A stretch of DNA of 64,000 bases, taken from Escherichia coli O157:H7. Lineage in GTDB: Bacteria; Pseudomonadota; Gammaproteobacteria; Enterobacterales; Enterobacteriaceae. The position numbers and the translations under genes are program-made. Positions 58,603 through 59,664 of the stretch are shown one piece after another. The DNA lies in the NCBI RefSeq assembly GCF_013167455.1, contig NZ_CP038328.1; one strand, given 5' to 3'. Under the pieces are notes generated by a model. That model ran no database searches, had not been told where the DNA came from, and saw only the letters and a list, made by a program, of their open reading frames with translations. Every line of letters begins with the position of its first letter. The first letter of the stretch is position 1.

Positions 58603-58941
58603 TTAAACATTTATAAGCGTTATAAATGGGTGGAACCTGTAAAGACTTCTACTCATTTATATTCTTTGTCGTCTCTGAAAACTCATCCATCTTGCCTATC
58701 CCGGACTAATCATTATCATTCTCTACAAATTCTGTGGCGTTAATTTTTCGCTGGAGTGAAAATTATTGCGGTAAAGTTTGGTAGATTTTAGTTTGTATAG
58801 AGTTATTTTAAATATTTACCTTTTTAATCAATGGGTTAAGTGCTCTTTAACATAATGGATGTGTTGTTTGTGTGATACTGTAAAGTTGGTAGATTGTGAC
58901 TGGCTTAAAAAATCATTAATTAATAATAGGTTATGTTTAGA

Positions 58942-59031
58942 GAGTTCCCCGCGCCAGCGGGGATAAACCGCAAAAGCGGGCAGCGAAAAAATTAAAGTCG
59001 AGGAGTTCCCCGCGCCAGTGGGGATAAACCA
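58942..59031 (+). CRISPR. Minimal orphan type I-E CRISPR array (2 repeats, 1 spacer)
   Basis: Repeat GAGTTCCCCGCGCCAGCGGGGATAAACCG at 58942-58970 and 59003-59031 (2 mismatches in copy 2); 32-nt spacer CAAAAGCGGGCAGCGAAAAAATTAAAGTCGAG; AT-rich leader-like sequence upstream; no cas genes in window. Confidence 0.85.
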
Positions 59032-59480
59032 CCATATAACCCGTTATCTCTTTCTCAAGTTTTTATATTAGCAGTACTCGTAATAAGCAACATATCCACG
59101 TAACCCCTCATGTTCAAAATAGCTCTCCATATATGAAAAGTTCACAATTATCGATACAAAAAATCAAATTTAATTAAAGTGTTATTTGTATGATACTTAA
59201 TCCATTAAGAAATTTTATCTATTATTTTTTTAAATTGAATTAATGTCTATTAATTTTTTTAGATTAATAGTTTGTTTTTTAATCTTGTTATTCATTGATT
59301 AAGTAATAAATCTGGAAATTTGTCTTTGTTTTGAGGCTAATGAGTGGTTTTACATAACCGCCTCTATACGCTGTTGATGAATAGTTCTTATGAATAAAGA
59401 TATCCAGTTCATACTTTAAGTGAAAATTGATAAAGTGCGATTCGTATTGTCTTTTATTCTAAAGACATCGAGTGTAGTTA

Positions 59481-59618
59481 ATATTCCTTGTAAAAACAGG
59501 GATAAACCGAACTAGTTAAAGTTTTTATTATGTTCCCTGCATCAGCGGGGATAAACCGGACTTGTTATCATTTTTTAAGTTGTCGAACTTATGTTCCCCG
59601 CGCCAGCGGGGATAACCA
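59481..59618 (+). CRISPR. Degenerate orphan CRISPR remnant (3 decayed repeats, 2 spacers)
   Basis: Repeat-like units at 59481-59509 (about 18/29 match), 59530-59558 (24/29) and 59591-59618 (1-nt deletion); spacers of 20 and 32 nt. Confidence 0.6.
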
Positions 59619-59664
59619 TTCAGGTATGTTCAGGCCGGGCAGTTTCCCGCCCGGTCTTCCTCAC

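What the first reader, a model, noticed from the sequence alone, without database searches (positions are those of the whole stretch)
58603..59664. 1-kb ORF-free AT-rich spacer surrounding the CRISPR remnants
Between queE and ygcE there is about 1.06 kb with no ORF of 60 aa or more and long A/T runs. It is consistent with a CRISPR leader or nucleoid-protein-silenced region, and could hide small RNAs.
Basis: seen in the sequence. Interest (0 to 1): 0.25.

Follow-up and report, generated by a model that had tools for sequence, protein, structure and literature searches.

The report
E. coli CRISPR-II locus, AT-rich parts
The 1-kb AT-rich gap between queE and ygcE is the well-described second CRISPR locus of E. 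coli (here O157:H7): a leader, a one-spacer array, a known 0.5-kb H-NS-bound AT-rich insert and a small degenerate array, so it is ordinary and already known.

Summary
Window 58603-59664 is exactly the queE/ygcE intergenic region (1062 bp). Its GC is 0.338 against 0.505 for the window, the lowest of any stretch that long, and the longest ORF inside it is 37 aa.

It is the known type I-E CRISPR-II locus of E. coli; the window is 100% identical to O157:H7 chromosomes. It has five parts:
- queE terminator and leader2.3 (58603-58941)
- an intact minimal CRISPR2.3 array of two repeats and one spacer (58942-59031)
- a 449-bp AT-rich non-coding segment (59032-59480)
- the degenerate three-repeat CRISPR2.2 array (59481-59618)
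- a terminator hairpin conserved as far as Citrobacter (59632-59657)

The literature already describes the 0.5-kb AT-rich sequence that splits CRISPR2. Its K-12 orthologue is listed as an H-NS-bound 'promoter island'. So "leader" and "nucleoid-silenced" both hold, but for different sub-segments. I found no sRNA gene.

New detail:
- The AT-rich segment is not a leader homologue.
- It is absent from a B2 E. coli strain, E. albertii and E. whittamii.
- It has a hypervariable core.
- Its last ~120 bp plus CRISPR2.2 are less polymorphic than the neighbouring gene.
- The degenerate repeats keep their hairpin through compensatory changes.

Novelty: already known. Interest: low.

The parts
58621..58669 (+). 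Putative queE intrinsic terminator: AU-rich hairpin 58621-58661 followed by UUCUUUGU
   Evidence: MFE -17 kcal/mol, z = -3.1; inverted repeat I8. The terminator function is inferred, not shown.
58780..58941 (+). Leader2.3 of the CRISPR2.3 array. Contains the TTGGTAGATT motif at 58778-58787 and 58886-58895 (GTAG at -53..-50, the position of the integrase-anchoring site), an exact IHF consensus AATCAATGGGTTA at 58826-58838, an IHF-like core AATCATTAATTAA at 58910-58922, and the -10 box position -66..-61 = 58876-58881 (TACTGT here, TACTAT in K-12)
   Evidence: Homology to leader2.1 of O157 (E = 4e-15) and K-12 (E = 6e-19), with z = 7-7.8; also similar to the Phytobacter and Pseudocitrobacter leaders (z 4.1-6.3). 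2 of 162 differences from K-12. IHF pattern. Motif and box positions are taken from PMC5224486 and PMC3384332.
58942..59031 (+). CRISPR2.3 array: repeat 58942-58970 (exact I-E consensus), 32-nt spacer 58971-59002, terminal repeat 59003-59031 (2 mismatches, ends ACCA)
   Evidence: 2 matches against 0 expected; family D1; both repeats form the hairpin. K-12 has 7 repeats at the same place. No protospacer in phages or plasmids.
59032..59480 (.). 449-bp AT-rich non-coding segment that splits the CRISPR-II array (GC 0.265). It is orthologous to the K-12 H-NS-bound 'promoter island' (maps to ~59050-59403). Sub-blocks: conserved 59032-59100, hypervariable core 59101-59362, conserved 59363-59480
   Evidence: mapping; diversity. 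PMC3661553 Table 1, PMC2886076, PMC10910852. The whole 59032-59664 stretch is present in 4123 of 5426 E. coli genomes. The segment is absent from a B2 strain, E. albertii and E. whittamii. No hit in phages or true plasmids.
59481..59618 (+). CRISPR2.2 degenerate array: repeat a 59481-59509 (61% identical to the reference repeat), 20-nt spacer 59510-59529, repeat b 59530-59558 (82%), 32-nt spacer 59559-59590, truncated terminal repeat c 59591-59618 (86%)
   Evidence: families D1 and D2; all three repeats fold into the same 7-bp/4-nt hairpin; 2 compensatory pairs. The 32-nt spacer is >=99% identical in 4048 of 4062 genomes. [quoted passage not shown]
59632..59657 (.). G+C-rich hairpin between the convergent genes; probable bidirectional terminator for ygcE and for + strand CRISPR transcripts
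   Evidence: -17.9 kcal/mol (+) and -19.2 kcal/mol (-), z about -4. It is the one intergenic element aligned in all six genomes, including Citrobacter. The terminator function is inferred.

Best explanation

Shown here (by sequence):
- Just downstream of queE lies a leader of about 160 bp, then a two-repeat, one-spacer CRISPR2.3 array.
- Next comes a 449-bp AT-rich non-coding segment.
- Then comes the three-repeat degenerate CRISPR2.2 array, whose last repeat is the terminal repeat of the ancestral single array.
- Last is the hairpin shared by the convergent queE and ygcE genes.

Inferred from published work on the near-identical K-12/BL21 leader:
- The leader carries the pre-crRNA promoter, with its -10 box at -66..-61.
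- The ~60 bp next to the repeat are needed for spacer acquisition. On that model IHF bends them so that Cas1-Cas2 contacts both the upstream anchoring motif and the leader-repeat junction, and new spacers go in at the first repeat.

Inferred from literature on the K-12 orthologue:
- The AT-rich DNA, especially the 0.5-kb central segment, is a binding platform for H-NS. It is listed as a 'promoter island' that binds RNA polymerase and H-NS but yields little full-length RNA.
- This keeps the locus transcriptionally quiet.

The low GC therefore has two sources: a functional leader and an H-NS-coated insert within the array. The insert is dispensable, because repeat-to-repeat recombination has removed it in the single-array (CRISPR2.2-3) form seen in a B2 strain, and about a quarter of E. 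coli genomes lack it.
For: - Identity: 100% match to many O157:H7 chromosomes, with queE and ygcE annotated on the flanks.
- Repeats: an exact I-E consensus repeat plus a 2-mismatch copy, against 0 expected by chance. Five copies lie in register at spacings of 61, 478, 49 and 61.
- The K-12 alignment shows the same architecture with 7 repeats.
- Leader homology to I-E leaders.
- Complete cas3-cas2 genes and CRISPR2.1 lie about 21 kb away in an identical genome.
- The K-12 promoter-island coordinates map inside the central segment.
- In ATCC 25922 (B2) the central segment and repeats a and b are missing exactly between two repeats.
- Literature: PMC3903273, PMC4489801 and PMC3737337 (CRISPR2.2/2.3 separated by 0.5 kb; O157:H7 carries both); PMC10910852 and PMC2886076 (the 0.5-kb AT-rich, highly conserved non-coding sequence); PMC3661553 (H-NS-bound promoter island ygcE/queE); PMC10011333 (Pcrispr2 silenced by H-NS); PMC3384332 and PMC5224486 (leader elements, IHF).
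Against: - H-NS binding, promoter activity and IHF/Cas1-2 function were not measured here and are transferred from K-12/BL21. O157 differs by an A-to-G change inside the -10 box position (58880), and its central core is only ~87% identical to most E. coli.
- A simple sigma-70 consensus scan finds no excess of promoter-like sites: 4 against 6.4 expected.
- H-NS motif matches are only modestly enriched: 7 against 2.7 +/- 1.7.
- 'Silenced insert' does not explain why 59363-59616 is so much less polymorphic than neighbouring synonymous sites.
Confidence: 0.9

Rival explanations
1. The last ~120 bp of the central segment plus CRISPR2.2 (59363-59618) is a selectively maintained functional unit rather than a fossil. 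For example, it could be a mini-array transcribed by read-through or from its own promoter and cut by Cas6e into two fixed crRNA-like RNAs. Alternatively it could be a cis-acting protein-binding element.
For: - Segregating sites: 6 of 254 in 59363-59616, against 11 of 56 at ygcE four-fold sites (p = 1.4e-5) and 38 of 456 in ygcE overall (p = 0.001).
- Block 59296-59618 is >=99% identical to O157 in 74% of 4196 genomes. An equal length of ygcE reaches that in 6%, and the leader region in 7%.
- The 32-nt spacer is invariant in 4048 of 4062 genomes.
- All three degenerate repeats keep the 7-bp hairpin; a and b also keep the full AUAAACCG handle, while c ends AUAACCAU. Repeat a keeps the hairpin through two compensatory pairs and a wobble.
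Against: - The unit is missing from about a quarter of E. coli genomes and from E. albertii and E. whittamii, with no known consequence.
- No target was found for either spacer in phages, plasmids or elsewhere in E. coli genomes.
- No promoter was identified.
- The compensatory signal rests on one repeat, and 23 of 500 shuffles reach it.
- Low diversity could reflect a recombination-driven sweep. The 11 genomes are not independent samples.
Confidence: 0.2
2. The central AT-rich segment is the decayed leader of CRISPR2.2. On this view there were once two independent arrays, and the second leader has lost its function.
For: - It lies directly upstream of the degenerate repeats in the transcribed orientation, is AT-rich, and its repeat-proximal part is conserved.
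- One 31-nt stretch is 81% identical to leader2.3, with z = 2.6 and 3 of 300 shuffles reaching it.
Against: - No significant similarity to any of seven I-E leaders: z <= 2.3 for the repeat-proximal 200 bp and <= 2.1 for the whole segment.
- It lacks the GGTAGA-type motif near -50 and the TTAGAG junction that all those leaders share.
- CRISPR2.2 shows no spacer turnover (PMC4489801).
- The published literature assigns leaders only to CRISPR2.1 and CRISPR2.3 (PMC3903273, PMC3737337).
Confidence: 0.1
3. The region hides an independent small RNA or small-protein gene unrelated to CRISPR.
For: - A conserved block exists.
- 59362-59664 folds better than shuffles on both strands, with z = -5.5 and -4.7.
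Against: - The predicted structure is made of the repeat hairpins and the terminator hairpin.
- No Rfam match reaches even half of any family's gathering score.
- No promoter-plus-terminator pair was found.
- Internal ORFs are 37 aa or shorter. Three of them, plus the two edge ORFs, have no Pfam hit.
- No RNA gene is annotated here in K-12 or O157.
- The promoter-island paper reports only short abortive products (PMC3661553).
Confidence: 0.05

Closest known systems
E. coli K-12 MG1655 CRISPR-II locus (CRISPR2.2 + CRISPR2.3, ygcE-queE/ygcF intergenic region)
   Same: The flanking genes, orientation, leader, 0.5-kb AT-rich segment, three-repeat CRISPR2.2 and terminal hairpin are all the same. 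The leader shows 2 of 162 differences and CRISPR2.2 shows 1 of 138.
   Different: - O157 has 2 repeats and 1 spacer where K-12 has 7 repeats and 6 spacers.
- The first repeat starts GAG rather than GTG.
- There is an A-to-G change in the -10 box position (58880).
- The core of the AT-rich segment differs by 10.8% plus indels.
Single-array form CRISPR2.2-3 (E. coli strain ATCC 25922, phylogroup B2; E. albertii; E. whittamii)
   Same: The leader2.3 and the terminal repeat ...GGGGATAACCATTCAGG next to the ygcE hairpin are the same.
   Different: These forms lack the 449-bp AT-rich segment and repeats a and b, so their gap is only 299-533 bp.
H-NS-bound 'promoter islands' of E. coli K-12 (Panyukov & Ozoline 2013), e.g. 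the casA/cas3 island at Pcas
   Same: These are AT-rich stretches of 300 bp or more that bind RNA polymerase and H-NS and give low productive transcription. The K-12 orthologue of 59050-59403 is itself one of the 78 listed islands (PMC3661553).
   Different: - This island lies inside a CRISPR array between convergent genes, not upstream of a gene.
- O157 carries a divergent haplotype of its core.
- Island status was not recomputed here.
queE-adjacent type I-E arrays of other Enterobacteriaceae (Phytobacter, Pseudocitrobacter, UBA3516)
   Same: The arrays lie about 225-350 bp downstream of queE in the same orientation. The Phytobacter massiliensis and Pseudocitrobacter leaders are clearly related to leader2.3, the other two only weakly.
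   Different: No counterpart of the 0.5-kb AT-rich segment or of CRISPR2.2 was found in them. Citrobacter, Cedecea and Klebsiella spallanzanii have just a 37-103 bp queE-ygcE gap with the hairpin.

Membership tests
Type I-E CRISPR array (CRISPR2.3) | Two or more direct repeats of 29 nt matching the E. coli I-E consensus, regularly spaced | tested here: met
   exact match at 58942-58970 and a 2-mismatch match at 59003-59031, with 0 expected. The spacing is 61 nt.
Type I-E CRISPR array (CRISPR2.3) | Unique spacer of about 32 nt between the repeats | tested here: met
   The spacer is 58971-59002, 32 nt, read directly from the sequence.
Type I-E CRISPR array (CRISPR2.3) | Repeat RNA forms the 7-bp stem and 4-nt loop recognised by Cas6e | tested here: met
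   the same hairpin is predicted for all five copies; 100% of cells are paired. Cleavage by Cas6e itself was not tested.
Type I-E CRISPR array (CRISPR2.3) | Cognate cas genes in the genome | tested here: met
   There are none in the window. In O157:H7 FRIK944, 100% identical over window 58400-59900, a full cas3-casABCDE-cas1-cas2 set lies about 21 kb away.
Type I-E CRISPR array (CRISPR2.3) | Transcription into pre-crRNA, and spacer uptake at the leader end | not testable with these tools
   Shown for the near-identical K-12/BL21 locus (PMC3384332, PMC11879090). O157:H7 Cas1-Cas2 are active on reporter plasmids (PMC3737337).
CRISPR leader (applied to 58780-58941) | AT-rich sequence directly upstream of the first repeat, homologous to other I-E leaders and carrying their conserved motifs | tested here: met
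   E = 4e-15 to 6e-19, z up to 7.8. The shared motifs TTGGTAGATT, AATCAAnnnGTTA and TTTAGAG are present.
CRISPR leader (applied to the central segment 59032-59480) | Homology or shared motifs with I-E leaders | tested here: not met
   z <= 2.3 against seven leaders, and the motifs are absent; no BLAST hit in 80 enterobacterial loci.
CRISPR leader (applied to the central segment 59032-59480) | The adjacent array shows polarised spacer turnover | tested here: not met
   The CRISPR2.2 spacer is >=99% identical in 4048 of 4062 genomes. PMC4489801 reports 'two invariable spacers'.
H-NS-bound promoter island | Orthology to the listed K-12 island 2901670_347 (ygcE/queE) | tested here: met
   The coordinates were converted using the casA/cas3 control and mapped through alignment A1 to window ~59050-59403.
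H-NS-bound promoter island | Very high density of predicted transcription start points over 300 bp or more (PlatProm) | tested here: inconclusive
   PlatProm is not available here. A simple -35/-10 scan gives 4 sites against 6.4 expected.
H-NS-bound promoter island | H-NS and RNA polymerase occupancy in vivo | not testable with these tools
   Reported for K-12 in all the ChIP studies compared (PMC3661553, Table 1). Here there is only a weak motif enrichment, 7 against 2.7 +/- 1.7.
Independent small RNA gene | Match to a curated RNA family, or a discrete promoter-terminator unit | tested here: not met
   no match reaches even half of a family's gathering score; no such unit.

The most novel reading that the evidence does not exclude
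CRISPR2.2 and the ~120 bp upstream of it (59363-59618) are not a decaying remnant. They are a conserved functional unit that was inserted into the CRISPR-II array before E. coli diversified. It might supply two fixed Cas6e-processed crRNA-like RNAs with a non-immune role, or act as a cis element. A fast-evolving H-NS-bound AT-rich core lies next to it.
Probability: 0.18. Interest if true: 0.45.

Novelty: already known. Interest (0 to 1): 0.14.

Why it matters
As it stands this is a correct re-identification of a textbook locus. The CRISPR-II leader and array are a standard substrate for E. coli spacer-acquisition studies, and the 0.5-kb AT-rich insert and its H-NS binding are in the literature. 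The finding therefore adds little.

The only open point is small. Nobody appears to have explained why the degenerate CRISPR2.2 array and its upstream flank vary less than the neighbouring gene while the adjacent AT-rich core is hypervariable. If that reflects function, it would be an example of a retained, non-adaptive CRISPR mini-array.

Tried and rejected
- **cas pseudogene remnants in the gap.** tblastn of O157 and K-12 Cas1, Cas2, Cas6e and Cas3 against 58500-59700 gave only chance hits, with E >= 0.12. Rejected.
- **Central segment as a leader homologue.** Local alignments against seven leaders with shuffle controls gave no signal. Rejected.
- **Mobile-element origin of the central segment.** There was no phage hit. 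The only long 'plasmid' hits are three mislabelled ~4.8-4.9 Mb E. coli chromosomes; the fourth is a marginal 79-nt, 78.6% match to an Arsenophonus plasmid at E = 8e-4. Rejected.
- **Protospacers for the O157 CRISPR2.3 spacer and both CRISPR2.2 spacers.** None were found in phages or true plasmids. There was no second site of 20 nt or more in E. coli genomes for the 32-nt spacer.
- **Known RNA families.** None.
- **Protein families for the five candidate ORFs.** None.
- **ORF-free length as a signal.** It is not significant given the composition. The part of that script that scanned other windows was flawed, because windows lying inside long genes counted as ORF-free, and I ignore it.
- **13-nt complementarity between the CRISPR2.2 spacer and the leader (I19).** It lies outside the crRNA seed and is of a size common in this AT-rich DNA, so I treat it as chance.
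- **Papers not held.** Pul 2010, Pougach 2010 and Touchon 2011 could not be read. Statements about the CRISPR-II promoter therefore rest on secondary sources.

Full report
**Observation.**
The queE ORF ends at 58602 and the convergent ygcE ORF ends at 59665, leaving 1062 bp. An identical O157:H7 chromosome is annotated with only these two genes on the flanks.

GC is 0.338, against 0.505 for the 64-kb window, 0.515 for queE and 0.495 for ygcE. No other stretch of this length in the window is as low; the next separate locus has GC 0.383. Runs of 10 or more A/T are about eight times denser than in the window.

The longest ORF fully inside is 37 aa. Two ORFs of 77 and 68 aa start inside CRISPR repeats and run antisense into ygcE; neither has a Pfam match. 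The lack of ORFs is not informative in itself, because 61% of composition-matched shuffles also have none of 60 aa or more.

**What it is.**
The E. coli type I-E repeat occurs exactly at 58942-58970 and with two mismatches at 59003-59031, against none expected by chance. Three further degenerate copies lie in register at 59481, 59530 and 59591.

Alignment with K-12 MG1655 shows the same architecture throughout. The only structural difference is that K-12 has seven repeats where O157 has two.

This is the CRISPR-II locus described in the literature. [quoted passage not shown] O157:H7 is explicitly stated to carry both (PMC3737337). [quoted passage not shown] A complete cas3-to-cas2 operon with CRISPR2.1 lies about 21 kb away in an identical genome.

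**Anatomy (window coordinates).**

| Part | Coordinates | Notes |
|---|---|---|
| queE 3' flank | 58603-58779 | AU-rich hairpin plus U-tract, probably the queE terminator |
| Leader2.3 | 58780-58941 | bona fide I-E leader |
| CRISPR2.3 | 58942-59031 | two repeats, one 32-nt spacer |
| Central AT-rich segment | 59032-59480 | GC 0.265 |
| CRISPR2.2 | 59481-59618 | three degenerate repeats |
| Terminator hairpin | 59632-59657 | G+C-rich |

The hairpin is the only intergenic element aligned in all six genomes, including Citrobacter. Where queE and ygcE are adjacent outside Escherichia, as in several Citrobacter species, Cedecea and Klebsiella spallanzanii, the gap is just 37-103 bp. The whole CRISPR-II content is thus an addition to an ancestral short terminator region.

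**The leader.**
Leader2.3 is homologous to the CRISPR2.1 leaders of O157 and K-12 (E = 4e-15 and 6e-19; z = 7-7.8). It is also similar to the leaders of the queE-adjacent I-E arrays in Phytobacter massiliensis and Pseudocitrobacter.

Shared blocks include AATCAAnnnGTTA, an exact IHF consensus at 58826-58838. They also include TTGGTAGATT, whose GTAG falls at -53..-50, the position of the integrase-anchoring site defined in PMC5224486. The third shared block is the TTTAGAG junction.

By position, the -10 box reported at -61..-66 (PMC3384332) is 58876-58881. It reads TACTGT in O157 and TACTAT in K-12.

The functional roles are inferred from experiments on the near-identical K-12/BL21 leader and were not tested here. 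Those roles are the promoter, IHF bending, Cas1-Cas2 docking and the requirement for the proximal 60 bp (PMC3384332, PMC5224486, PMC11879090).

**The central AT-rich segment.**
It is not a leader homologue. There is no significant similarity to seven I-E leaders and none of their motifs; the only hint is one 31-nt stretch at z = 2.6. It contains no cas gene remnant and has no counterpart in phages or true plasmids.

Its K-12 orthologue is one of 78 'promoter islands' (entry 2901670_347, ygcE/queE). These are AT-rich stretches that bind RNA polymerase and H-NS but give little full-length RNA. This one is marked as H-NS-bound in all the ChIP datasets compared (PMC3661553, Table 1). I converted the U00096.2 coordinates using the casA/cas3 island as a control. 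Through the alignment, the island maps to window ~59050-59403.

A review also states that Pcrispr2 is silenced by H-NS (PMC10011333). In this sequence I can add only weak support. Matches to the H-NS high-affinity motif number 7, against 2.7 +/- 1.7 in composition-matched shuffles. A simple sigma-70 scan shows no excess of promoter-like sites.

**Distribution.**
The stretch 59032-59664 (central segment, CRISPR2.2 and tail) is present over at least 80% of its length in 4123 of 5426 complete E. coli genomes.

In ATCC 25922 (B2) the gap is 473 bp. It holds the leader, a repeat, a spacer and a hybrid repeat that ends in the CRISPR2.2 terminal sequence. This is the outcome expected from repeat-to-repeat recombination and corresponds to the published 'CRISPR2.2-3' form. 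E. albertii (three repeats) and E. whittamii (one repeat, partly deleted leader) also lack the segment. One GTDB 'E. coli' representative has an unrelated 138-bp gap with no CRISPR at all.

I cannot decide whether the segment was inserted in the ancestor of the non-B2 lineages or lost several times.

**An unexplained detail.**
Conservation is strongly uneven. Between O157 and K-12, four-fold sites differ by 6.8% in queE and 12.6% in ygcE. The blocks of the gap compare as follows:

| Block | O157 vs K-12 difference |
|---|---|
| 59101-59295 | 10.8% plus indels |
| 59296-59480 | 1.1% |
| CRISPR2.2 | 0.7% |

Species-wide identity to the O157 sequence is equally uneven:

| Stretch | Genomes at >=99% identity | Other |
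|---|---|---|
| 59296-59618 | 74% of 4196 | |
| equal length of ygcE | 6% | |
| leader region | 7% | |
| core 59101-59295 | | 80-90% identity in 88% of genomes |

In an 11-genome alignment, 59363-59616 has 6 segregating sites in 254. That compares with 11 of 56 at adjacent four-fold sites (Fisher p = 1.4e-5) and 38 of 456 in ygcE (p = 0.001). The 32-nt CRISPR2.2 spacer is >=99% identical in 4048 of 4062 genomes.

All three degenerate repeats still fold into the canonical 7-bp/4-nt hairpin. Repeat a does so through two compensatory C-G to U-A changes and a wobble (23 of 500 shuffles reach this). Repeat a with its 20-nt spacer also looks like a diverged, shortened duplicate of repeat b with its spacer (74% over 46 nt).

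These observations fit purifying selection on CRISPR2.2 and its upstream flank. However, the genomes are not independent, a recombination-driven sweep is not excluded, no target or promoter was found, and the unit is absent from about a quarter of strains.

**Small RNAs.**
Apart from the expected crRNAs, nothing supports a hidden sRNA. There is no Rfam match near threshold and no promoter-terminator unit. The significant predicted folding of 59362-59664 is accounted for by the repeat and terminator hairpins. Neither K-12 nor O157 has an RNA gene annotated here.

**Verdict.**
The feature is already known, and interest is low. The one lead worth a note is the contrast between the hypervariable AT-rich core and the unusually invariant CRISPR2.2 block.

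Noticed in passing
window 59101-59362 versus 59363-59616: A hypervariable AT-rich core (24-33% segregating sites, indels, at least three haplotypes: O157, K-12 and MIN6) lies directly beside a block that is less polymorphic than the neighbouring ygcE gene.
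   Followed up: partly
window 59481-59509 (repeat 2.2a): The most degenerate repeat (61% identity) keeps the Cas6e-type hairpin through two compensatory C-G to U-A changes and one wobble. It also keeps the ATAAACCG 3' handle intact.
   Followed up: yes
window 59481-59526 versus 59530-59575: Repeat 2.2a plus its 20-nt spacer is 74% identical to repeat 2.2b plus the start of its 32-nt spacer. The first CRISPR2.2 unit looks like an old tandem duplicate rather than an independent acquisition.
   Followed up: no
window 58826-58838; L003 ~13000; L063, L078, L081 leaders: An exact IHF consensus (AATCAATGGGTTA) sits about 105-116 bp upstream of the first repeat. It is conserved in leader2.1 of O157, where it overlaps the cas2 stop codon, and in the leaders of other genera. 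This site is upstream of the repeat-proximal IHF site (within ~35 bp of the first repeat) studied in PMC5224486.
   Followed up: no
window 58880: O157, like ATCC 25922 and E. albertii, has G where K-12 and MIN6 have A, inside the reported -10 box position of the CRISPR-II promoter (TACTGT versus TACTAT). This might weaken pre-crRNA transcription.
   Followed up: no
window 57651-57930: The queE upstream region is also very AT-rich (GC ~0.30). In K-12 it is a second listed H-NS-bound promoter island (queE/ygcG). In O157 the divergent neighbours are a LemA-family gene and TPM-domain genes rather than K-12's yqcG-ygcG.
   Followed up: partly
L089 2239-3195 and L093 2270-3226: Two E. coli genomes have a deletion joining a 456-bp 3' fragment of ygcE directly to queD. 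It removes yqcE to ygcN but leaves CRISPR2.2 and the AT-rich segment intact.
   Followed up: no
L009 4672-4811: A GTDB species representative labelled E. coli (SCPM-O-B-8794; YgcE protein 96.7% identical) has an unrelated 138-bp queE-ygcE gap with no leader or repeats. About 850 of 5426 E. coli genomes also lack the leader region.
   Followed up: no
window 60388-60442 (-): A sub-threshold Rfam hit to the archaeal C/D-box sR51 (27.9 bits against a gathering score of 38) lies inside ygcE. It is almost certainly chance.
   Followed up: no
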